Sequence record: OL657228.1
Source of the DNA: Escherichia phage 21
Reading direction: 5' to 3' (one strand)
Length of the DNA stretch: 42,931 nucleotides
The stretch's first letter is position 1. Each line of letters opens with the position of its first letter. Positions 5,948 through 26,873 of the stretch are shown here, piece after piece. The position numbers were made by a program, and so were the translations under genes. The notes below the pieces were generated by a model, which saw only the letters and a list, made by a program, of their open reading frames with translations, was not told the DNA's origin and searched no databases.

Positions 5948-6295
5948 ATGGTGACGAAAACCATCACTGAACAGCGTGCGGAAGTACGTATTTTTGCCGG
6001 TAATGATCCGGCTCATACCGCCACAGGCAGCAGCGGGATTTCCTCGCCAACACCGGCACTGACGCCCCTGATGCTGGATGAAGCCACCGGGAAACTGGTG
6101 GTCTGGGACGGACAGAAAGCCGGTAGTGCGGTTGGCATACTGGTACTGCCGCTTGAAGGCACAGAGACGGCGCTGACGTATTACAAGTCGGGAACCTTTG
6201 CGACGGAGGCAATCCACTGGCCTGAAAGTGTGGATGAACACAAAAAGGCCAACGCCTTTGCTGGCAGTGCCCTGAGTCACGCGGCGCTGCCGTAA
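5948..6295 (+). CDS. D: capsid decoration protein D
   Basis: 115 aa; NDPAHTAT...TPLMLDE...GKLVVWDG...GILVLP...YKSGTF resembles lambda gpD. Confidence 0.88.
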   Translation: MVTKTITEQRAEVRIFAGNDPAHTATGSSGISSPTPALTPLMLDEATGKLVVWDGQKAGSAVGILVLPLEGTETALTYYKSGTFATEAIHWPESVDEHKKANAFAGSALSHAALP

Positions 6296-6352
6296 CACGT
6301 TATCAGGCCACCGCGGTGGCCTGACTGATTTCTGAATGAAAGGAACTGATTT

Positions 6353-7381
6353 ATGGGATTGTTTACGACCCGCCAGTTACTCGGTTATACCGAACAAAAA
6401 GTTAAATTTCGTGCGCTGTTTCTGGAGCTGTTTTTCCGCCGTACGGTGAATTTCCATACCGAAGAGGTGATGCTGGACAAAATTACCGGAAAAACGCCGG
6501 TGGCGGCCTATGTCTCCCCGGTTGTTGAAGGAAAAGTGCTGCGTCATCGTGGTGGTGAAACCCGCGTGTTGCGTCCGGGCTACGTCAAGCCGAAACACGA
6601 ATTTAATTACCAGCAGGCGGTTGAGCGCCTTCCTGGTGAAGATCCATCTCAACTGAATGATCCGGCTTACCGCCGTCTGCGTATCATTACCGATAACCTC
6701 AAACAGGAAGAGCACGCGATTGTCCAGGTGGAAGAAATGCAGGCGGTAAATGCTGTGTTGTATGGCAAATACACCATGGAAGGAGACCAGTTCGAGAAAA
6801 TTGAGGTCGATTTTGGCAGGTCGACGAAGAATAACATCACTCAGGGTAGTGGTAAGGAGTGGTCAAAACAGGATCGTGACACGTTCGATCCTACACATGA
6901 TATTGACCTCTACTGCGACCTGGCCAGCGGTCTTGTGAATATTGCCATTATGGACGGTACCGTCTGGCGTCTTCTGAATGGTTTTAAGCTGTTCCGCGAA
7001 AAACTGGATACCCGTCGCGGTTCAAATTCTCAACTCGAAACGGCAGTGAAAGATCTGGGCGCAGTGGTGTCCTTCAAGGGGTATTACGGCGATCTGGCCA
7101 TTGTGGTGGCGAAAACGTCTTATATAGCAGAAGACGGTATCGAAAAACGTTATCTTCCAGATGGCATGCTGGTTCTGGGGAATACTGCTGCAGATGGGAT
7201 CCGTTGTTACGGTGCCATTCAGGATGCTCAGGCGTTGTCCGAAGGTGTGGTGGCCTCTTCCCGTTATCCGAAACACTGGCTGACGGTAGGGGATCCCGCC
7301 CGTGAATTTACCATGACGCAGTCCGCGCCGCTGATGGTGTTGCCGGACCCGGATGAGTTTGTGGTGGTACAGGTGAAATAA
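6353..7381 (+). CDS. E: major capsid protein E
   Basis: 342 aa; strong similarity to lambda gpE (DTRRGSNS.LETAVKDLG, GDPAREFTMTQSAPLMVLPDPDEFVVVQ). Confidence 0.93.
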   Translation: MGLFTTRQLLGYTEQKVKFRALFLELFFRRTVNFHTEEVMLDKITGKTPVAAYVSPVVEGKVLRHRGGETRVLRPGYVKPKHEFNYQQAVERLPGEDPSQLNDPAYRRLRIITDNLKQEEHAIVQVEEMQAVNAVLYGKYTMEGDQFEKIEVDFGRSTKNNITQGSGKEWSKQDRDTFDPTHDIDLYCDLASGLVNIAIMDGTVWRLLNGFKLFREKLDTRRGSNSQLETAVKDLGAVVSFKGYYGDLAIVVAKTSYIAEDGIEKRYLPDGMLVLGNTAADGIRCYGAIQDAQALSEGVVASSRYPKHWLTVGDPAREFTMTQSAPLMVLPDPDEFVVVQVK

Positions 7382-7432
7382 TCCGTGAGCGGGGGCGAAA
7401 TGCCCCCGTGTCTTTTTTCACAGGGGGCTGAT

Positions 7433-7807
7433 ATGGCAACGAAAGAGCAAAATCTGAAACGGCTTGATGAACTGGCCCTGATTCTGGGGCGTGAGCCGGA
7501 TATATCCGGGAGTGCCGCAGAGATAGCGCAGCGGGTGGCAGAATGGGAAGAGGAAATGCAGTCATCCGGCGATGATGTACAGGTTATGAATATGGATATC
7601 CGGGAGCGGGAAACCGCGGCTCATGATGTTCGTGAGGAAACATCCGGCGCGTTAACGCGCATCAGAGTTCTGACCTGCCTCCATCTCTGTGGCGTTGATG
7701 GTGAAACGGGGGAATCCGTTGAGCTTGCGGATGTTGGTCGGGTGATTCTGATTATGTCCTCAGATGCAAAAACACACGTTGATGGTGGAATGGCTGTTTA
7801 TGCGTGA
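7433..7807 (+). CDS. FI: DNA-packaging protein FI
   Basis: Position between E and FII; start at MATKEQNLKRL with SD-like GGGGG upstream; acidic FI-like composition, weakly similar to lambda FI. Confidence 0.7.
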   Translation: MATKEQNLKRLDELALILGREPDISGSAAEIAQRVAEWEEEMQSSGDDVQVMNMDIRERETAAHDVREETSGALTRIRVLTCLHLCGVDGETGESVELADVGRVILIMSSDAKTHVDGGMAVYA

Positions 7808-8153
7808 TTTTCAGAATGCCTTTGATGCCGCCCTTGCCGGGGTGGACAGTACGATTGTTGAAGTGATGGGCATCAGTGCGCAGTTCACCTCCGGTGCACA
7901 GCGTGGCGGCGAGGTTCATGGCGTTTTTGACGATCCGGAGTCGCTGGGTTTTGCCAGTAGTGGGATCCGTATTGAAGGAAGTAACCCGTCATTATTTGTG
8001 CTTACGGATACGGTTTGTGCTGTACGGCGTGGTGACACGCTGACCATTAACGGCGAGATGTTCTGGGTGGACCGTGTTTCTCCGGATGACGGAGGGAGTT
8101 GTTATCTCTGGCTCAACCGGGGGCAACCACCTGCCGCCAGCCGTCGCCGCTGA
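7800..8153 (+). CDS. FII: head-tail joining protein FII
   Basis: Start MRDFQNAFDAA; GVFDDPES...RIEGSNPSLFV..RRGDTLTI....FWVDRVSPDDGGSCYLWL matches lambda gpFII closely. Confidence 0.9.
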   Translation: MRDFQNAFDAALAGVDSTIVEVMGISAQFTSGAQRGGEVHGVFDDPESLGFASSGIRIEGSNPSLFVLTDTVCAVRRGDTLTINGEMFWVDRVSPDDGGSCYLWLNRGQPPAASRRR

Positions 8154-18600: not shown

Positions 18601-19175
18601 GCAATCCCCCAACGTTTTCACTGACACCTGATGGTCGACTTTCTGCGAAAAATGCGGATATCAGCGGTAACGTGAACGCGAACTCCGGGACGCTCAACAA
18701 CGTCACGATTAATCAGAACTGTCGGATTCTGGGAAAACTGTCAGCTAACCAGATTGAAGGTGATATTGTCAAAACGGTGGGAAAAGCCTTTCCGAGAAAT
18801 GGCAGTTATGCCAGCGGTACAATAACGGTCACTGTGTACGATGACCAGGCTTTTGACCGTCAGATAGTAGTCCCCCCCGTTCTGTTTCGTGGGGGTAAGC
18901 ATGAAAACTTCAACAGCAACAACCAACAGTCATACTGGTATTCAACCTGTAAGCTGCAGGTACTGAAGAACGGACAGGAAATCTTTCAGCAACCCGCGAC
19001 GGATGTCAGCAGGGTATTTTCATCAGTCATTGATATGCCTGCCGGACACGGCCATGTCACCCTGACTTTCAATGTTTCTTCATATGGTGCTAATAACTGG
19101 ACGCCAACGACCAGTATCAGCGACCTTCTTGTTGTTGTGATGAAGAAATCTACAGCCGGTATCAGTATCAGTTGA
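15693..19175 (+). CDS. J: central tail fibre / host specificity protein J
   Basis: 1160 aa; N-terminal about 950 aa nearly identical to recalled lambda gpJ ([20 protein letters not shown]...); C-terminal about 200 aa recognisably J-like but diverged. Confidence 0.93.
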
Positions 19176-19193
19176 ATTTTATAACCCAGATAC

Positions 19194-19220
19194 GGGCGCC
19201 AGAAATGGCGCCTTTTTTAT
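19194..19220 (+). terminator. rho-independent terminator after J
   Basis: GGCGCC-AGAAAT-GGCGCC hairpin followed by TTTTTTATTT immediately after the J stop codon (approximate coordinates). Confidence 0.7.
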
Positions 19221-19227
19221 TTGTGGA

Positions 19228-21294
19228 GTGAATATGGCAGTACAGATTTCAGGCGTGCTGAAAGACGGTGCAGGAAAACCGATACAGAACTGCACCATTC
19301 AGCTCAAAGCAAAACGTAACAGCACCACGGTTGTGGTGAACACGGTGGCCTCAGAAAATCCGGATGAAGCCGGACGTTACAGCATGGATGTCGAGTATGG
19401 CCAGTACAGCGTTATCCTGCTGGTTGAAGGTTTTCCGCCTTCACATGCCGGGGCCATCACCGTGTATGAGGATTCTAAGCCGGGGACATTGAATGATTTT
19501 CTGGGCGCTGCAACAGAAGATGATGTTCGTCCGGAGGCACTGTATCGTTTTGAAAAGATGGTGGAAGAGGTGGCACGCAACGCTGAAGCCGCCTCTCAGA
19601 GCGCAGCGGCAGCAAAGAAATCAGAAACAGCAGCGGCATCGTCCAGGAATGCGGCGAAAACATCAGAGACGAATGCAGGTAACAGCGCGAAAGCGGCAGC
19701 TTCTTCAAAAACAGCCGCACAAAACGCAGCAACAGCGGCAGAACGTTCAGAGACAAATGCCCGTGCGTCAGAAGAAGCCTCCGCAGACAGTGAAGAGGCT
19801 TCCCGCCGTAATGCAGAGTCAGCCGCTGAAAATGCCGGAGTCGCCACCACAAAAGCGCGGGAGGCCGCAGCAGACGCAACAAAGGCCGGGCAGAAAAAGG
19901 ATGAGGCTCTGTCGGCAGCGACACGGGCTGAAAAGGCGGCAGACCGCGCAGAAGTCGCAGCGGAAGTGACTGCAGAGCCCTATGCGAATATAGTGCCGCC
20001 GCTGCCTGATGTGTGGATACCGTTTAACGATTCACTGGATATGATTGCGGGTTTTTCTCCGGGCTATAAAAAAATAGCTATTGGTGACGATGTGGTTCAG
20101 GTCGCCAGTGATAAACAGGTTAATTTCAGTCGCGCATCAACGGCAACATATATCAACAAATCTGGCGAACTGAAAACGGCGGAAATTAATGAGCCGCGAT
20201 TTGAGTGTGATGGCCTGCTTATTGAGGGACAAAGAACGAACTACATGCTCAATTCGGAAAGTCCAGCCAGCTGGGGGAAGTCATCAAACATGGATGTGCC
20301 CGAAACCGGGACAGATAGTTTTGGTTTTACTTATGGAAAGTTTGTCTGCAACGATTCTCTGGTTGGGCAAACTTCGGCTATTAATATGGCATCAATTGCT
20401 GCAACAAAGTCAGTTGATGTCTCAGGCGATAACAAGTACGTGACAACCTCATGCCGTTTTAAAACAGAACGACAGGTAAGGTTACGTATACGGTTTGATA
20501 AGTATGATGGTAGTGCAACAACTTTTCTTGGCGATGCGTACATTGATACGCAAACGCTTGAAATTAATATGACAGGTGGGGCTGCCGGCAGAATTACGGC
20601 ACGAGTCAGGAAGGATAAGACCACAGGCTGGATTTTTGCAGAGGCAACGATTCAGGCAATTGATGGTGAGTTAAAAATAGGCTCTCAGATACAGTATTCT
20701 CCTGAGCGGGGTGGGGCAACAGTATCTGGTGACTATATTTATCTTGCCACCCCACAAGTAGAGAATGGGCCGTGTGTATCATCATTTATTATTTCAGGAG
20801 GCAGCGCAACGACAAGAGCCAGTGATTTGGTTAGTATCCCCACCAGAAATAATCTTTATAAGTTACCATTTACTTTTTTACTTGAGATTCATAAAAACTG
20901 GGATATTGCACCAAACGCCGCACCCCGCGTGTGGGATATAGCAGCAGCCAATACCGGGCAATCAGCAATTGCAGCAATCAACAGAGGTAGTGGTAAGTTA
21001 TATATGAGTCTGTCAAACCCTTCAGGCTTGTATGTTAATAGCGCAGCGACAGATGTATTTGCAGAGAAAACCACATTTGGATGTATTGCAAAAGCTGATG
21101 GTCACTTTCATGTGGTGACAAATGGTAAAGCGGTTAATGAAGTTTATTGTGAATATAATGGTGTGACCGCTGATAAAAATATCCGATTTGGAGGGCAGAC
21201 GAATACTGGAGAACGACATCTGTTTGGCCATATTCGCAATTTCCGCATATGGCATAAAGAATTAAATGACAGGCAATTAAAAGAGGTCGTATGA
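19228..21294 (+). CDS. stf: side tail fibre protein (Stf-like N-terminus, unrelated C-terminal domain)
   Basis: 688 aa; first about 90 aa near-identical to lambda Stf (MAVQISGVLKDGAGKPIQNCTIQLKA...), then an Ala/Ser/Glu-rich repetitive shaft, then a C-terminal half from about aa 250 with no Stf similarity and visibly lower GC. Confidence 0.8.
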   Translation: MNMAVQISGVLKDGAGKPIQNCTIQLKAKRNSTTVVVNTVASENPDEAGRYSMDVEYGQYSVILLVEGFPPSHAGAITVYEDSKPGTLNDFLGAATEDDVRPEALYRFEKMVEEVARNAEAASQSAAAAKKSETAAASSRNAAKTSETNAGNSAKAAASSKTAAQNAATAAERSETNARASEEASADSEEASRRNAESAAENAGVATTKAREAAADATKAGQKKDEALSAATRAEKAADRAEVAAEVTAEPYANIVPPLPDVWIPFNDSLDMIAGFSPGYKKIAIGDDVVQVASDKQVNFSRASTATYINKSGELKTAEINEPRFECDGLLIEGQRTNYMLNSESPASWGKSSNMDVPETGTDSFGFTYGKFVCNDSLVGQTSAINMASIAATKSVDVSGDNKYVTTSCRFKTERQVRLRIRFDKYDGSATTFLGDAYIDTQTLEINMTGGAAGRITARVRKDKTTGWIFAEATIQAIDGELKIGSQIQYSPERGGATVSGDYIYLATPQVENGPCVSSFIISGGSATTRASDLVSIPTRNNLYKLPFTFLLEIHKNWDIAPNAAPRVWDIAAANTGQSAIAAINRGSGKLYMSLSNPSGLYVNSAATDVFAEKTTFGCIAKADGHFHVVTNGKAVNEVYCEYNGVTADKNIRFGGQTNTGERHLFGHIRNFRIWHKELNDRQLKEVV

Positions 21295-21569
21295 AAGATT
21301 TAACTTTGAAGTTTCATGACAAACTGCAGTTTAAGGCCTTCCTGTCATCTCTTGACTGGGAGGAGGATGAAGACCTCCAGAATAAACTGTTAGTCGATGA
21401 AATTGGTTTCACCTACACAGAAACAGGGGTAACAGAAGAGGGAGAACCTGTCTGTGTCCGGAATGACGGTTATTTTGTCAACATTCGCATTCTTGATGAC
21501 TTGTTTGATGTTTCTGTATTCTCTGATTATGTCGTGGAGCTGGAAACACCGCTTCGGGAATGGAGCTGA
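21291..21569 (+). CDS. hypothetical small acidic protein, start overlapping the tail fibre stop (ATGA)
   Basis: 92 aa, about 25% Asp+Glu; start overlaps the stf stop, suggesting coupled translation; no family recognised. Could be a fibre chaperone or something else. Confidence 0.45.
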   Translation: MKDLTLKFHDKLQFKAFLSSLDWEEDEDLQNKLLVDEIGFTYTETGVTEEGEPVCVRNDGYFVNIRILDDLFDVSVFSDYVVELETPLREWS

Positions 21570-21581
21570 AAGGAGGAAATA

Positions 21582-21875
21582 ATGGATATAAGCCCCTTAC
21601 TTCATGCGCTTTGTGCTGTGGCTGCGCAGATACTGGTTGGTCTTTTTACCGGAAACTGGGCTTACGGAGCGATAGCCGGTTGTACGTTCTTCATTGCGCG
21701 TGAACATACCCAGGCAGAATATCGCTGGATTGAAATGTTCGGGCATGGCAAGCGAATGAATATGCCGTGGTGGGGCGGTTTTGATCCGCGAGCTTGGGAT
21801 GTGGCAAGCCTGATGGATTTTGCTGTGCCGGTGGTGGCGTGTCTGCTGGTCTGGCTGTTGGTTAATCGTGGGTGA
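21582..21875 (+). CDS. hypothetical small membrane protein
   Basis: 97 aa with two hydrophobic segments (LLHALCAVAAQILVGLF and FAVPVVACLLVWLLV); SD-like GGAGG upstream; no family recognised. Confidence 0.45.
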   Translation: MDISPLLHALCAVAAQILVGLFTGNWAYGAIAGCTFFIAREHTQAEYRWIEMFGHGKRMNMPWWGGFDPRAWDVASLMDFAVPVVACLLVWLLVNRG

Positions 21876-21966
21876 AAAAAGGTGAGCTGTATATGCAACG
21901 GAGGAAGAAACCCCGTTGCTGGAAGCCAGGAAAAAGTATCGGGTGTTGCTGTCCTCGGATGTTGTG

Positions 21967-22824
21967 CTAATTGGGTGATAACAGATCCTGTGTATGGGAG
22001 TTTCCCTTTTTGCGTGCGTTGATGCTGGTAACGGCAAACGTCATGATGAACAAAACCGCGAATAAGACGACAATCGTCGGAGCTGGTGCGCTGTCGATAA
22101 AAAAGGACAACCAGACACCAGTCATTGACACTATTACCGATATGCCAGTCGCCAGTAGGAGCGCAATATGAAAGCGTTGTGTCAGGAGTACCGCAATGGC
22201 GCCAGGCGCAATGAGCAGAGAAATGGAGAGAATGATACCTACCGCTTTCAGCGTCGCCACAATGGTCAGAGAGACCATGCACAGCAGCCCATAATGCAGC
22301 CATCTCGTATGCAAACCGCTTACCTGCGCCTGTTGATAATCAAAGCTGAACAGCAAAAAATCCCGCCATTTTACGCTAATAACAAGTGTAACCAGCCCGG
22401 CAATAATCATCGTCTGGATTATATCGCCGATGGTTATCCCGAGCATGTCGCCGAAAAGAATATGGTCAAGATGTACGTCTGGTTTGACTGCAATATACAA
22501 GATCAGACCTGCGGCAAACATGCCAGAAAAAACAATCCCCATCACTGTATCTTGCTTGATTCGGCTGTTGTCTTTCAGGTATCCCGTCGCCACCGCGCAG
22601 AATACTCCGGCGACGAATGCCCCTGTAGCCAAAGGTAACCCCAGAATCCAGGCAAGCACGATTCCAGGAAAAACCGCATGACTCATCGCGTCACCCATCA
22701 GTGCCCAACCTTTCAGGACCAGAAAGACCGACAGCAGCGCACAGGGTATGGAAACTACCAGTGAAATCAGCAGTGCGTGACTCATAAAGGTGAACTGCAG
22801 TGGCTCCAGTAATAATGCCATCAT
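21967..22824 (-). CDS. sitD: Mn/Fe ABC transporter permease SitD
   Basis: 285 aa polytopic membrane protein, paralogous to the adjacent SitC and last gene of the four-gene minus-strand operon. Confidence 0.85.
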   Translation of the reverse strand: MMALLLEPLQFTFMSHALLISLVVSIPCALLSVFLVLKGWALMGDAMSHAVFPGIVLAWILGLPLATGAFVAGVFCAVATGYLKDNSRIKQDTVMGIVFSGMFAAGLILYIAVKPDVHLDHILFGDMLGITIGDIIQTMIIAGLVTLVISVKWRDFLLFSFDYQQAQVSGLHTRWLHYGLLCMVSLTIVATLKAVGIILSISLLIAPGAIAVLLTQRFHIALLLATGISVIVSMTGVWLSFFIDSAPAPTIVVLFAVLFIMTFAVTSINARKKGNSHTQDLLSPN

Positions 22825-23678
22825 GAGCGATCCTCCAGCGCCTTATGCGCACGCCGACGATTTGCCAAAAGCCCATGGGTGGGCGCAAAGACAAATGCTA
22901 AAAGAAACAGCAGTGTCTGCGCCACCACGATGATTCCACCTGTCGCGCCGTCCAGAAAGTAACTGACCCACGCGCCGAGGAAACTGGTCACACTGCCAAT
23001 AGTTACAGCAATCATGAGCAGGCGGGGAAAACGATCGGTTAACAACCATGCTGTTGCACCGGGAGTCACCACCAGACAGATCACCAGAAAGGCACCAACC
23101 GTTTGCAGCGCCGCAACGGTCGAAACCGACAGCAGGGTGAAGAAGATGAGTTTTAATCTGCCCGGATGCAATCCAATAGCACGGGCGTGATTCTCGTCGA
23201 AAAAGGTCACCATAAGATCTTTCCATTTGAAAAAAAGCACGATGATCGAGAGAATGCCAATGATAGTGAGTTGCAGGATATCCGCCGGATCGATTGCCAG
23301 AATATTGCCCAGGACGATGGTCTGAATGTTCACAGATGTCGGGTTCAATGACACCATAAACAGCCCCAGGCCAAAAAAGGACGAGAAGATCAGACCGATG
23401 ATGGCATCTTCTTTTAAGCGGGTGCGTTGGTTAAGAAACAGCATGCTGCCCGCAGCCAGTCCGCCGGAAAAGAAGGCTCCCAGAGAAAACGGAAGCCCCA
23501 GCATATATGCCCCCGCAACACCCGGGACAATAGAGTGCGACAACGCATCGCCAATCAGCGACCAGCCTTTTAGCATCAGATAGCATGACAGGAAAGCGCA
23601 GAGACCGCCGACCATCGCCGAGACCCACATCGCATTGAGCATATATTCATAGCTGAAGGGTTCCAGTAGCACGTTCAT
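22821..23678 (-). CDS. sitC: Mn/Fe ABC transporter permease SitC
   Basis: 285 aa polytopic membrane protein with ABC-3 permease character; overlaps sitB and sitD by 4 nt. Confidence 0.85.
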
Positions 23679-24502
23679 CTTTCTTCCCTCTGCACCGCTG
23701 ACGGTCGATGAGCCACAAAAGGGCGTTCATCGTCAGTAATAATGCTTTCTTCCGAGCCGTTAAGTGTGACATGGCGCAGTACGCCGCTAAAAGCCAGCTC
23801 TAGGTTCTCGGCTGTAAAAGTGGTGTCTGTCGGCCCGCTTGCCAGGACGGTGCCTTTGACCATGACCGTATAATCGCAAAATGTCGTGACGGATCCGAGA
23901 TTGTGTGTTGAGACAAGCATCGTTTTGCCTTCCGCGCGTAACTCCCTCAACAGGCTGATGATTTTGGCTTCGGTTTTCACATCAACGCCAGTAAAAGGTT
24001 CATCCAGCAGGATCACATCACCCTGCTGTGCAATCGCTCTCGCCAGAAAGACGCGTTTCTTTTGTCCACCGGAAAGCTCGCCGATTTGTCGATGGCGAAA
24101 ATTCACCATATCGACACGTTCCAGCGCATCGGTGACAATTTGACGATCCCTCTTTTTGGCGATACGCAACATACCCATATGCCCATAGCGGCCCATCATC
24201 ACCACATCTTCCACCAGTACAGGAAATGACCAGTCAACATCTTCTGACTGAGGGACGTAGGCAACCAGGTTTTTCTGTAACGCCTGTCGCGTGGGAATAC
24301 CCAGAACAGATATCTTTCCGCTGGTCAGACGCACAAATCCCATAATCGCTTTAAACAACGTCGATTTTCCGGAACCGTTTACCCCAACCAGAGCGGCAAT
24401 AGATCCACTTGGTACTGTGAAGGATGCATCGCGCAGTGCTGTGTGCCCGTTACGCCAGGTGACAGTAACATCATTAACGACAATGCCTGCAGATTGCATC
24501 AT
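23675..24502 (-). CDS. sitB: Mn/Fe ABC transporter ATP-binding protein SitB
   Basis: Walker [13 protein letters not shown] signature LSGGQKKRV, Walker B ILLDEP. Confidence 0.9.
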
Positions 24503-25416
24503 TATTTCTCCCTTTTCCCAGCTTTAATTCCCTGTACCAGCGTACTGGTAGTAACCTTAAGAAGGTCGATATACGTCGGTACCGGGCCGTTTTCTGTGCT
24601 CAGGGAATCGACATAGAGCACACCGCCGTAGTGTGCGCCGGTTTCACGCGCAACCTGACGCGCTGGTTTATCGGAAATCGTACTCTCGCTAAAGACTGCC
24701 GGGATATGATTTTTCTTAACTATATCAACAACCTTACGTACCTGCTGCGGTGTTCCTTGTTGATCGGCATTAATCGGCCACAGATAAAGCTCTTTTAGCC
24801 CCAAATCGCGTGCGAGATAAGAAAAAGCCCCTTCACTGGTGACCATCCATCGCTGATTCTCAGGGAGTTCCGTAATCTGCTTACGCAGGGGGGCAAGGGT
24901 TTGGGTAATCTTGGCTTTATAAGTATCGGCATTGCGTTGGTAGGTTTGTGCATTTGCCGGATCGTATTTTATCAACGCATCACGAATATTATCGACGTAA
25001 ATCAGAGCATTATCTGGCGACATCCATGCATGGGGGTTAGGTTTGCCCTCATAGGGTCCTTCGGTGATCCCTACAGGCGTCACACCCGAAGAGACAATTA
25101 CTTCTGGAACCCCATTGAGATGCTGGTAAAAGCGTTGGAACCACAATTCCAGATTCATACCATTGGCGAGAATCAGTTGTGCCCCCTGCGCACGTTTAAT
25201 ATCGCCAGGGGTAGGCTGATACTCATGAATTTCTGCACCAGGCCTGGTTATGGATGAGACTTCTGCAGCATCTCCCGCCACGTTTTTGGCCATATCCGCG
25301 ATGATGGTAAATGTTGTAATGACCTTGAATTTTTCAGTTGCACTTGCCTGAAATGCGATCGAGCAGGTGAGTGCGAGGCCCCCCAAGAGCATGGTTACTT
25401 TTTTTATTGAGTGCAT
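24502..25416 (-). CDS. sitA: periplasmic Mn/Fe-binding protein SitA
   Basis: 304 aa with N-terminal signal peptide ([26 protein letters not shown]); first gene of the operon; resembles cluster A-I metal-binding proteins. Confidence 0.88.
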
Positions 25417-25699: not shown

Positions 25700-25990
25700 C
25701 CTCCCCCCACCGAGCCTCCATGACTTTACTCCACTGTCTCTAGGGCTGCTGTGTGCCAGGAGCGGAAGCAGGGGGGCCAGAGACTCCTTAAAAGTTGATA
25801 GCTCGTTTTGCAGGGAGACTTACACGGTAAGCGTTATTCCGAAGAGCTTAAAATTGAAGCAGTCAAACGGGTTGTTGAGCGTGTTTATGCGCTGCCATCT
25901 GATTAATCGACGGAAGCAGTTCCGTTTGGTCTATGATGCAGTTGTCCGGCAGGCGCTCTGTGACGCAAAAGAACGATAGGAGTAGCATTG
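25700..25990 (+). mobile_element. probable IS3-family insertion sequence remnant (orfA N-terminal fragment, disrupted)
   Basis: A short frame translating to ...GKRYSEELKIEAVKRVVER resembles IS3-family OrfA HTH N-termini but has no start and is bounded by stop codons; no intact transposase follows. Confidence 0.4.
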
Positions 25991-26114
25991 AAGTGAACGA
26001 GGTTATGCTTGTCTTATATTATCCTCTATTTTAAAAACATCAGCTGGTTGTGTAAGAGTTTTTATTGTTTTATCTTGTTGACTTTGCTTTTATGAAAACA
26101 GAGTGATTGATACA

Positions 26115-26873
26115 ATGAAAACCTTAAGTGGGAAAGAGTTTAGGAAATTATTTAATCGTTATGAGACAGGATTCTATCTAAGTGAGTTTGAATACTTAAA
26201 GGACTTTGATCCTTTGTTTCCTGAATGCGTAGGGAAAGAATTAAAGTTGGGTTATAAACGAAAAGTTGATGTATGGTGCGAAGAGGATGCTGCGCTATAT
26301 GCAGAATTTATAGCTACAAAAGAAAGGCTGAAAAGAGGCCGGTTAATCCTAAAAATAAACCAAGTGTGGTCGCGTGTATATCCTGCTTATATTTATGCAA
26401 TTGAAGAAAGAATAAATGTCAGGGCAAAGGGGAGAGAGTCATTTAAGTATGAAACTGTGCAAGAAAAACAATGTAAACTTTCCATAATGTTAGATGGTCT
26501 GAAAGACCTTGAATGTGAAATAGCTATGATTTCAAGTGAGTTTGAAATTGAAAAACACTCTATGCACTATTTTTATATGATTTTTGATATTGAACGCTAT
26601 ATAAATGACTGCAGTTACTTTGTTTTTTCTGCTGCTAAAGTTGTTAAAGGCGTGATTCAATGCATTGGTTACATTGACAAAAATAACAAAGCAAGTTGCG
26701 ATGAATTTTATTCAGGCAGCTATGAATGCTTGGATGATGATCAGGAAACACTGAACTATTTAAATGAATCATGCGCAGAGGGTATAGACGCTGATAAAGA
26801 TCTCATCAGGAAGAATGAGTTATTAGCCTTATCCCTGAAGGAATTGTATCAACTTCTCGTTTCAAAAAAATAA
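26115..26873 (+). CDS. hypothetical protein, AT-rich orphan cargo gene (no recognisable family)
   Basis: ORF track 26103..26873; probable ATG at 26115 (MKTLSGKEF). Visibly AT-rich, Lys/Glu-rich with 9 Cys; TTGACT -35-like hexamer about 30 bp upstream; lies between the IS remnant and attP. Confidence 0.6.
   Translation: MKTLSGKEFRKLFNRYETGFYLSEFEYLKDFDPLFPECVGKELKLGYKRKVDVWCEEDAALYAEFIATKERLKRGRLILKINQVWSRVYPAYIYAIEERINVRAKGRESFKYETVQEKQCKLSIMLDGLKDLECEIAMISSEFEIEKHSMHYFYMIFDIERYINDCSYFVFSAAKVVKGVIQCIGYIDKNNKASCDEFYSGSYECLDDDQETLNYLNESCAEGIDADKDLIRKNELLALSLKELYQLLVSKK

What the first reader, a model, noticed from the sequence alone, without database searches (positions are those of the whole stretch)
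19980..21294. Chimeric side tail fibre: lambda Stf-like N-terminus fused to an unrelated AT-rich C-terminal domain
The first about 90 residues are near-identical to lambda Stf and followed by an Ala/Ser/Glu-rich shaft. From about residue 250 the protein is unrelated to Stf and visibly lower in GC (ending ...GERHLFGHIRNFRIWHKELNDRQLKEVV). That indicates a horizontally swapped receptor-binding module, and the usual Tfa chaperone is absent. The distal domain probably targets a different surface receptor and defines host range.
Basis: partly seen in the sequence, partly recalled or inferred. Interest (0 to 1): 0.55.

Follow-up and report, generated by a model that had tools for sequence, protein, structure and literature searches.

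The report
Mosaic lambda-type side tail fibre

Summary
The ORF at 19228/19234-21294 (688/686 aa) is 90% identical to lambda Stf over its first 90 residues. It continues as an Ala/Glu/Ser-rich shaft and loses all similarity to Stf at about aa 255. There GC falls from 0.56 (late operon) to 0.435.

The swapped part is a 1.9-kb cassette, 19993-21877. It holds the fibre head (aa 256-688) plus a 92-aa and a 97-aa gene. A P2-like prophage carries the same cassette at 87.6% nucleotide identity. A 58-bp relic of lambda tfa lies just to its right.

The head has two lectin-type domains. One resembles the RcGTA head-spike fibre and CBM4 modules. The other is LamG-like with a hypervariable core. Glycan binding is inferred, not shown.

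No Tfa gene is present. The 92-aa gene follows this head in 144 phage records and is a candidate accessory factor of unknown role. In many phages a further distal fibre gene follows it. This phage lacks that gene.

The first 25 kb of the window is 100% identical to phage PhiR63_2, and this head allele occurs in 453 of 5426 complete E. coli genomes. The feature is real, modular and already known. "Defines host range" is untested, and relatives with an IS-cut fibre are still deposited as isolated phages.

The parts
19234..21294 (+). Side tail fibre gene (686 aa from ATG 19234; the ORF listing starts it at GTG 19228, 688 aa; residue numbers in this report use the 688-aa frame)
   Evidence: GGAG 7 nt upstream of the ATG; PHROG 1419 at 1102 bits; 99.9% identical to the ev017 fibre
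19234..19626 (+). Lambda-Stf-type N-terminal anchor domain (aa 3-133). In Ur-lambda, residues 1-94 form the 12-copy collar at the gpV/gpM junction
   Evidence: PF08400 E 1e-68; PDB 9e7m E 1e-49; 85% nt identity to lambda over 19228-19583 only; PMC12617516
19627..19992 (+). Ala/Glu/Ser-rich shaft, presumed trimeric coiled coil, about half as long as lambda's
   Evidence: Composition; weak similarity to lambda's shaft and to the IrisVonRoten gp22 shaft; coiled coil is inferred, not computed
19993..21877 (+). Mobile 1.9-kb cassette: fibre head (aa 256-688) + 92-aa gene + 97-aa gene
   Evidence: One collinear blastn block, 87.6% over 1885 bp, with the P2-like prophage locus L017; GC drop begins here
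20119..20847 (+). Head domain D1 (about aa 298-540): beta-sandwich, RcGTA head-spike-fibre / CBM4-like
20848..21291 (+). Head domain D2 (about aa 541-688): LamG / concanavalin-A-like
   Evidence: PF13385 aa 562-683 at E 5e-5, 23.9 bits, below the gathering score 27.6; 9 of 12 homologues match, best E 1.9e-7; the AF2 model is unreliable here
20935..21174 (+). Hypervariable core of D2 (aa 570-649), GC 0.40, GC3 0.26
   Evidence: 10-47% identity to phages whose D1 is 87-97% identical; 27-37% mean identity across 25 homologues, against 65-89% in the flanking bins
20244..21182 (+). Block replaced relative to the close relative Lambda_2E9 (aa 339-651)
   Evidence: blastn: 93% identity over 19228-20243 and 89.7% over 21183-21569, with nothing between
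21291..21569 (+). 92-aa partner gene (PHROG 1361), start overlaps the fibre stop (ATGA). Small alpha/beta protein of unknown role (assembly factor or adaptor)
21582..21875 (+). 97-aa predicted membrane protein (PHROG 1443), last gene of the cassette in temperate phages
   Evidence: hydrophobic segments at about aa 3-25 and 73-97; no Pfam, NCBIfam or PADLOC match
21894..21951 (+). Relic of the 3' end of lambda tfa (Tfa aa about 156-175), the scar of the replaced stf-tfa module
   Evidence: 54/58 nt identical, E 3e-21; tblastn 80% over 20 aa

Best explanation
The gene encodes the side tail fibre of a lambda-like temperate coliphage. The first 25 kb of the window is identical to phage PhiR63_2.

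The model has four parts.
1. Anchor. Residues 1 to about 96 fold like lambda gpStf-N and anchor four trimeric fibres as a collar at the tail-tube / tail-tip junction. This rests on 88-90% identity to a solved structure.
2. Shaft. Residues of about 100-255 form a short Ala-rich coiled-coil shaft. This is inferred.
3. Head. Residues 256-688 form a terminal head of two lectin-type beta-sandwich domains, a CBM4 / RcGTA-head-spike-fibre-like D1 and a LamG-like D2. Each has conserved edges and a replaceable core. The domain assignment is shown for D1 and is weak for D2.
4. Function. The head most likely binds a surface polysaccharide (O-antigen or capsule) reversibly. That would concentrate virions on the cell and let the J tip reach its outer-membrane receptor, as lateral fibres do in T5-like phages and Ur-lambda. 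This is inferred, and no ligand is known.

The head belongs to a 1.9-kb cassette (19993-21877) that also carries a 92-aa soluble protein and a 97-aa membrane protein. The cassette replaced the ancestral Stf receptor tip and Tfa chaperone by recombination. It left a 58-bp tfa scar, and the same event is seen in a P2-like prophage. The 92-aa protein probably takes over an assembly or adaptor role for this head type.
For: - Anchor; structure described in PMC12617516.
- Position: the gene sits directly after J in the late operon.
- Head domains: NF048003 above cut-off; profile hit to RcGTA Rcc01080 at E 2.6e-17. That protein binds capsular polysaccharide (PMC7296036; PMC10218006).
- D2: Laminin_G_3 matches in 9 of 12 homologues.
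- Published homologue: the head of IrisVonRoten gp22 (46% identical over 589 aa) was described as carrying a galectin-like domain that may act as an extra receptor-binding domain (PMC11990801).
- Variation pattern: it fits a specificity determinant, with conserved linkers at aa 258-287 and 648-688 and replaceable cores at aa 340-530 and 570-649.
- Cassette and scar.
- Family size: 227 phage records and 2890 clusters at 50% identity; in the full-length matches listed, the module ends at the protein's C-terminus.
- 92-aa partner.
Against: - No ligand, adsorption or virion-proteomics data exist for this allele or any close homologue.
- The AF2 monomer model is poor overall (mean pLDDT 55.5). Only aa 343-509 is reliable, so the D2 fold, the conserved edges and the oligomeric arrangement are unverified.
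- The Laminin_G_3 score for this protein is below Pfam's gathering threshold.
- The globular part of the RcGTA fibre was never resolved experimentally.
- In many phages a separate distal fibre gene follows the 92-aa gene. There the head may serve mainly as a docking platform.
- The 92-aa protein does not co-vary with either variable core. It is 93.5% identical in 2E9, whose head is 43% identical. That is unlike tip-specific chaperones such as Tfa.
Confidence: 0.62

Rival explanations
1. The head is mainly a docking platform (proximal fibre) for a separate distal receptor-binding fibre, with the 92-aa protein as adaptor. This phage has lost the distal fibre gene, so its side fibre is an incomplete or vestigial version with little receptor function.
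For: - The gene order fibre(head), then about 92 aa, then a distal fibre occurs in T5-like (IrisVonRoten, C13, SP15), T1-like (tunus, Jahat, PeterMerian), Nonagvirus JenP1 and lambdoid 2G7b.
- The distal fibres share an N-terminal motif, M[AV]T.T.IP.DIT.LK.
- PMC11990801 models gp24 attached to proximal gp22.
- The window has no such gene or motif in any frame.
- IS-cut fibres occur in phages that were still isolated and deposited.
Against: - The head with the 92-aa gene but without a distal fibre is kept intact in several independent backgrounds: window/ev017, 2E9, ev243, a P2-like prophage and rV5-like nimi.
- The pair is kept as an intact ORF pair in 453 complete genomes.
- The cores of D1 and D2 are hypervariable, which is expected of a ligand-binding surface rather than a constant docking site.
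- The 92-aa gene stays intact between distal-fibre-less phages whose synonymous sites are saturated.
Confidence: 0.15
2. The head binds a protein receptor (an outer-membrane protein), as Ur-lambda Stf binds OmpC, rather than a glycan.
Against: - The best fold matches are carbohydrate-binding modules and lectins.
- The nearest characterised sequence relative binds capsule.
- Lateral fibres of the T5-like and T1-like phages that carry this head are thought to target O-antigens (PMC8594841).
Confidence: 0.15
3. The head is an enzyme: a jelly-roll polysaccharide lyase or hydrolase that degrades capsule or O-antigen, in other words a tailspike-like depolymerase.
Against: - The top matches are non-catalytic CBMs.
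- The depolymerase hits lie in the low-complexity shaft and are not significant.
- No catalytic family is hit in Pfam or NCBIfam.
- RcGTA head-spike fibres are reported to bind CPS, not degrade it.
Confidence: 0.06

Closest known systems
Side tail fibre of Escherichia phages PhiR63_2 (PV340574), ev017 (LR597643, Jouyvirus), PhiR57_1, mEp460_4F5
   Same: The same gene. Protein identity is 99.1-99.9%, followed by the same 92-aa and 97-aa genes and (shown for ev017) sitABCD. The first 25 kb of the window is 100.0% identical to PhiR63_2.
   Different: Nothing of substance. These records annotate it only as 'tail fiber' or 'side tail fiber protein', without functional data.
Ur-lambda Stf / Tfa (P03764; PDB 9e7m)
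   Same: N-terminal collar domain (83/94 identical), Ala-rich shaft, and position after J.
   Different: The shaft is about half as long and lom is absent. The gp37-like distal coiled coil, the OmpC-binding tip and the Tfa chaperone are all replaced. Only 58 bp of tfa remains.
IrisVonRoten (Bas32, T5-like) lateral fibre gp22-gp23-gp24 (PMC11990801)
   Same: gp22 is 46% identical over aa 129-688, covering shaft and whole head. gp23 is the 92-aa homologue (48.9% identical by tblastn). gp22's C-terminal 'galectin-like domain' was proposed as an extra receptor-binding domain.
   Different: gp22 has a T5-type N-terminus and carries a T-shaped distal fibre, gp24. The window has no distal fibre gene.
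RcGTA head spike fibre Rcc01080 (NF048003; PDB 6tb9 chain F3)
   Same: Sequence homology to D1 and its conserved edges (E 1e-9 single sequence, 2.6e-17 with a profile). It binds capsular polysaccharide.
   Different: It is a single chain attached to capsid pentons through an N-terminal Leu-Gly repeat. It has no LamG domain and is not a tail fibre. Its globular part is unresolved.
P2-like prophage tail fibre P0087 (locus L017)
   Same: The same cassette at 87.6% nt identity over 1885 bp (head + 92 aa + 97 aa), followed by a truncated Caudo_TAP relic.
   Different: The N-terminus is of the P2 gpH type (PF12571) on a contractile-tail baseplate.
DT57C LtfA/LtfB branched lateral fibres (PMC4728585, PMC10713586)
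   Same: The concept is shared: a modular lateral fibre with O-antigen specificity, a proximal fibre carrying a second fibre, and a helical trimeric shaft.
   Different: The C-termini are unrelated. They have a pfam13884 autocleaving intramolecular chaperone, and no homology to this head is reported.

Membership tests
Lambda-type side tail fibre (Stf) | N-terminal PF08400 collar/anchor domain | tested here: met
   PF08400 at 230 bits against cut-off 26.6; 83/94 identical to the solved gpStf-N
Lambda-type side tail fibre (Stf) | Gene lies downstream of J in a lambda-type tail operon | tested here: met
   J (82.6% identical to lambda J) ends at 19175 and the fibre starts at 19234
Lambda-type side tail fibre (Stf) | gp37-like distal coiled coil and receptor tip homologous to lambda orf-314 | tested here: not met
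   No alignment better than E 1.2
Lambda-type side tail fibre (Stf) | Cognate Tfa (Caudo_TAP) chaperone gene immediately downstream | tested here: not met
   Only a 58-bp relic at 21894-21951; the 92-aa ORF is unrelated to Tfa
Lambda-type side tail fibre (Stf) | Trimeric fibres, four per virion | not testable with these tools
   Inferred from identity to gpStf-N (PMC12617516). No multimer prediction or particle data are available.
Head-spike-fibre-domain tail fibres (NCBIfam NF048003 / PHROG 1419) | Match to the family models above threshold | tested here: met
   NF048003 at 55.3 bits against cut-off 36; PHROG 1419 at 1102.6 bits
Head-spike-fibre-domain tail fibres (NCBIfam NF048003 / PHROG 1419) | Module sits at the C-terminal end of a fibre and is followed by the ~92-aa PHROG 1361 gene | tested here: met
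   overlapping ATGA junction in the window
Head-spike-fibre-domain tail fibres (NCBIfam NF048003 / PHROG 1419) | Binds polysaccharide (shown only for RcGTA Rcc01080) | not testable with these tools
   The CBM/lectin fold similarity is supportive only
Laminin_G_3 / ConA-like lectin superfamily (PF13385) | Score above Pfam's gathering threshold | tested here: inconclusive
   23.9-25.0 bits against 27.6 for the window protein; 9 of 12 homologues match at E <= 0.01, best 1.9e-7; the AF2 model of this region is unreliable
Branched lateral fibre of IrisVonRoten gp22/23/24 type | Proximal fibre homologous to gp22 plus a gp23-like small protein | tested here: met
Branched lateral fibre of IrisVonRoten gp22/23/24 type | Distal fibre gene with the conserved M[AV]T.T.IP.DIT.LK N-terminus after the small gene | tested here: not met
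   No motif in six frames; no tblastn hit better than E 0.017 with six distal fibres. The 97-aa gene starts 12 nt after the stop codon of the 92-aa gene.

The most novel reading that the evidence does not exclude
The 1.9-kb unit 19993-21877 is a self-contained, portable 'recognition kit' with three parts. The first is a two-lectin-domain head whose cores can be exchanged separately. The second is the 92-aa protein, acting as a new class of fibre assembly factor or adaptor that makes the head independent of Tfa-type chaperones. The third, found only in temperate phages, is the 97-aa membrane protein, which would act in the lysogen to mask or exclude the same receptor. No function has been assigned to PHROG 1361 or PHROG 1443.
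Probability: 0.15. Interest if true: 0.5.

Novelty: already known. Interest (0 to 1): 0.22.

Why it matters
As a discovery it matters little. The exact gene is already in GenBank phage records and in about 8% of complete E. coli genomes, and modular exchange of tail-fibre tips is textbook phage biology. The analysis still yields four practical points.

1. It gives precise exchange boundaries for this head type (19993 and 21877, with internal boundaries near aa 339, 570 and 651). These could guide the design of Stf chimeras for lambda-based delivery vectors.
2. It flags two conserved, uncharacterised small genes (92 aa and 97 aa) that travel with the head and would probably need to be co-transferred in such engineering.
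3. It shows that RefSeq's automatic annotation splits this intact gene into a 'pseudogene' plus a separate CDS.
4. The phage carrying this fibre also carries the ExPEC-associated sitABCD transporter. Its adsorption range therefore bears on how that trait spreads.

Tried and rejected
- PDB 6tb9 gives no fold for the RcGTA fibre. Only residues 2-10 were resolved.
- PDB 9occ (Sf11 gp17) is a weak hit (E 8.5e-4) to a C-terminal appendage that is unresolved and of unknown function.
- DT57C LtfA/LtfB were considered as characterised homologues and rejected, because their C-termini are of a different type with an intramolecular chaperone.
- Two lambda-Stf engineering papers hold no data on this head.
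- Tandem Repeats Finder finds no DNA repeats in the shaft.
- The promoter/terminator scan is at background level. The one notable site is a hairpin at 19194-19213 between J and the fibre.
- PADLOC, Pfam and NCBIfam give nothing for the 92-aa and 97-aa proteins.
- The Aeromonas T5-like phage's small ORF could not be shown to be homologous to the 92-aa protein (hhalign probability 5.7%).
- The MSA for structure prediction could not be made deeper. The search for homologous proteins lists only the top 120 hits, all at least 45% identical, and other sequences may not be submitted.
Full report
NUMBERING. The ORF listing reports one ORF, 19228..21294 (+), 688 aa, starting at GTG. An ATG two codons later (19234) has GGAG 7 nt upstream and gives MAVQISG..., which matches lambda Stf's MAVKISG. 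The phage records annotate 686 aa. I use the 688-aa numbering throughout.

- The finding's span (19980-21294) is the C-terminal 437 residues of this ORF.
- The N-terminus matches lambda Stf at 81/90, 83/94 and 101/118 identical residues. Pfam PF08400 covers aa 3-133 at E 1e-68. The solved Ur-lambda gpStf N-domain (PDB 9e7m) matches aa 3-96 at E 1e-49.
- Residues 119-254 are 37% Ala, 12% Glu and 12% Ser. They align only loosely with lambda's shaft.
- Beyond about aa 255 nothing aligns with either lambda stf reading frame.
- GC is 0.435 (GC3 0.364) for aa 251-688, against 0.564 +/- 0.024 for 707 windows of the same length in the late operon. None of those windows is below 0.494, so z = -5.4. GC3 of J against the module gives chi-square p = 1e-26.
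- No intact Tfa is encoded anywhere in the window.

2. WHAT IT IS.
- The first 25 kb of the window is 100.0% identical to Escherichia phage PhiR63_2 and 99.6% identical to phage ev017 of the genus Jouyvirus.
- The fibre protein is 99.1-99.9% identical to the annotated 'side tail fiber' or 'tail fiber' proteins of ev017, PhiR63_2, PhiR57_1 and mEp460_4F5.
- The region 19228-21900 is 100% identical in many phylogroup-B2/ExPEC-type chromosomes, including ATCC 25922, NU14, APEC O18 and DSM 30083.
- PHROG 1419 ('tail protein') matches at 1102 bits.
- The gene follows J, as stf does in lambda. lom is missing here.

3. ANATOMY OF THE HEAD (aa 256-688).
- NCBIfam NF048003 ('phage head spike fiber domain') matches aa 331-531 above its cut-off.
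- The head spike fibre Rcc01080 of the Rhodobacter capsulatus gene transfer agent matches aa 299-545 at E 1e-9. A profile of 12 phage heads raises this to E 2.6e-17.
- Laminin_G_3 (ConA-like lectin) matches aa 562-683 at E 5e-5. This is just below the gathering score, but the family matches 9 of 12 homologues.
- An AlphaFold2 monomer model built on a shallow 26-sequence alignment is poor overall (mean pLDDT 55.5). It does contain a confident beta-sandwich for aa 343-509.
- The head is therefore best described as two tandem lectin-type beta-sandwiches, D1 (about aa 298-540) and D2 (about aa 541-688). D2's fold rests on sequence evidence only.

4. MOSAICISM IS FINER THAN ONE JUNCTION.
The table shows amino-acid identity to the window in 30-residue bins.

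| Segment | Identity to the window |
|---|---|
| aa 258-287 | 83-90% in every phage compared |
| aa 348-527 (D1 core) | 77-97% in T5-like C13, T1-like tunus and lambdoid 2G7b (mostly 87-97%); 17-53% in 2E9, PeterMerian and IrisVonRoten |
| aa 588-647 (D2 core) | 10-27% in everything outside the ev017 group |
| aa 648-688 | mostly 55-83% |

- Across 25 database homologues the D2 core (aa 570-649) averages 27-37% identity, against 65-89% for all the other 20-residue bins.
- At DNA level the close relative Lambda_2E9 is 93% identical over 19228-20243 and 89.7% over 21183-21569, with nothing between. Lambda matches only 19228-19583. C13, tunus and 2G7b match 19991/19998-20938 at 76-82%.
- Junctions therefore lie near aa 118, 255, 339, 570 and 651. 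The conserved linkers presumably serve as recombination sites.

5. THE UNIT THAT MOVED.
- P0087 is the tail fibre of a P2-like prophage. P2 R, S, V, W, J and I homologues lie upstream, and its N-terminus is of the PF12571 type.
- It carries the same head at 86% identity starting at '...PPLPDVWIPFNDSLDM', and this includes the D2 core. A 92-aa ORF, a 97-aa ORF and a truncated 74-aa Caudo_TAP relic follow it.
- blastn gives a single collinear block: window 19993-21877 equals L017 5487-7371, 87.6% identical over 1885 bp.
- In the window, 54 of 58 nt at 21894-21951 match the 3' part of lambda tfa (E 3e-21).
- So a cassette of head + 92-aa gene + 97-aa gene replaced the ancestral Stf tip and most of tfa. 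The same replacement is seen in a P2-type H-G module.

6. THE 92-aa GENE.
- It overlaps the fibre's stop codon (ATGA). It belongs to PHROG 1361, which has no assigned function, and it is unrelated to Tfa.
- tblastn finds it in 144 phage records. In nearly every listed row it abuts or overlaps the 3' end of a fibre gene. The exceptions are the IS-disrupted relatives and a few unannotated or doubly 'hypothetical' records.
- Profile comparison extends the family to the T5-like SP15 and the rV5-like myovirus nimi, at probability 98%.
- The gene stays intact between phages whose synonymous sites are saturated (window against ev243: dN 0.30). Where dS is measurable, dN/dS is 0.11-0.41.
- It does not co-vary with D1 or D2. 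It is 93.5% identical in 2E9, whose head is 43% identical. If it contacts the fibre, it contacts the conserved parts.
- Whether it is an assembly chaperone, a cap or an adaptor cannot be decided here.

7. A COMPLICATION: BRANCHED FIBRES.
- In IrisVonRoten, C13, SP15, tunus, Jahat, PeterMerian, JenP1 and lambdoid 2G7b, a further fibre gene follows the small gene. Its N-terminus is conserved (M[AV]T.T.IP.DIT.LK), and several records annotate it as an endosialidase, an endosialidase chaperone or a lateral tail fibre chaperone.
- For IrisVonRoten, Humolli et al. model this gene product (gp24) as a T-shaped distal fibre attached to the proximal fibre gp22. gp22 is 46% identical to the window protein over 589 residues. 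They note a galectin-like domain protruding from gp22's C-terminus that may be an extra receptor-binding domain (PMC11990801).
- The window has no such third gene. There is no motif in any frame and no tblastn hit. ev017, 2E9, ev243, the P2-like prophage and nimi also lack it.
- Two facts make a purely structural docking role unlikely: the head's cores are hypervariable, and the head persists without a distal fibre. The docking role is not excluded.

8. MECHANISM (BEST ESTIMATE).
- Shown by close homology to a solved structure: twelve N-domains form the collar at the gpV/gpM junction and give four trimeric fibres (PMC12617516).
- Inferred: a short coiled-coil shaft presents the two-lectin head. 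The head binds a surface glycan reversibly and speeds adsorption before J engages its receptor. This is the role proposed for lateral fibres of T5-like and T1-like phages and for Ur-lambda Stf (PMC8594841; PMC11990801).
- The fibre is probably dispensable on permissive laboratory hosts. Phages 4A7, D2, 1W, 3W and Lambda_4C10 carry three transposase ORFs after aa 645 of the fibre and are nevertheless deposited as isolated phages. This mirrors the stf frameshift of laboratory lambda.

9. COMPARISON AND NOVELTY.
- The gene is a member of the lambda Stf family by its anchor and position, but not by its tip or chaperone.
- It is a full member of the large head-spike-fibre-domain fibre family. That family has 227 phage records and 2890 clusters at 50% identity, and in the full-length matches listed the module ends at the protein's C-terminus.
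- The exact sequence, its phage and its sitABCD cargo are published (PMC6969025).
- The verdict is that the feature is already known. Residual interest lies in the sharply bounded three-gene cassette shared by siphovirus and myovirus prophages, and in the two uncharacterised small genes.

Noticed in passing
window 21967-25416 (minus strand): The sitABCD iron/manganese transporter operon lies directly after the fibre cassette. It is inside the genomes of the deposited phages ev017 and 4A7, and sitD follows the cassette in 2E9, so it is phage cargo rather than flanking chromosome. This is already reported: Mathieu et al. 2020 found sitABCD on 70% of infant-gut lambda phages.
   Followed up: partly
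L001 (E. coli ATCC 25922, NZ_CP009072) 6007-8067, equivalent to window 19234-21294: RefSeq/PGAP annotates this intact, 100% identical ORF as a truncated pseudogene ('prophage tail fiber N-terminal domain-containing protein, missing C-terminus') plus a separate CDS ('phage head spike fiber domain-containing protein'). This is an annotation artefact and it recurs in many genomes.
   Followed up: yes
L006 (phage 4A7) 5794-8460; also phages D2, 1W, 3W, Lambda_4C10; chromosomes H41/H42: Insertion sequences disrupt this fibre gene in relatives. Three transposase ORFs cut it after aa 645 in several deposited phage genomes. IS3-family elements interrupt it in two chromosomes.
   Followed up: partly
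window 21582-21875: The 97-aa predicted membrane protein (PHROG 1443, no known function) is part of the cassette in lambdoid and P2-like temperate phages. tblastn did not find it in the T5-like and T1-like virulent phages that carry the same head. A lysogen-side role such as exclusion or receptor masking is a guess only.
   Followed up: partly
window 21894-21951: A 58-bp relic of the 3' end of lambda tfa (93% identical) lies between the 97-aa gene and sitD. The P2-like prophage with the same cassette keeps a 74-aa Caudo_TAP remnant at the equivalent place.
   Followed up: yes
window 19176-19233: lom, which sits between J and stf in lambda and in phages 2G7b and ev243, is absent here. The 58-nt J-stf spacer holds a terminator-like hairpin (19194-19213, 8-bp GC-rich stem followed by a T run).
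   Followed up: no
L003, L005, L008, L010, L012-L015 (gene after the ~92-aa gene): The distal fibre genes of lambdoid, T1-like, T5-like and Nonagvirus phages share an N-terminal motif, M[AV]T.T.IP.DIT.LK. This suggests a common docking mode onto this head type or its small partner protein.
   Followed up: partly
phage records MG065692 (C13), MG065635 (C12), MG065654 (C15); OR847806, OR848352: Records named 'Campylobacter phage' carry coliphage-type fibre heads. C13 is classified as a Tequintavirus (T5-like), and C12 and C15 are about 135-138 kb and match like the rV5-like coliphages. Short 'Listeria phage LM' fragments also match. The host labels look unreliable, and C13 is itself flagged UNVERIFIED.
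   Followed up: no
window about 25900-26400: This is the lowest-GC stretch of the window (GC 0.35-0.37 in 1317-bp windows), just beyond sitA. It was not examined.
   Followed up: no
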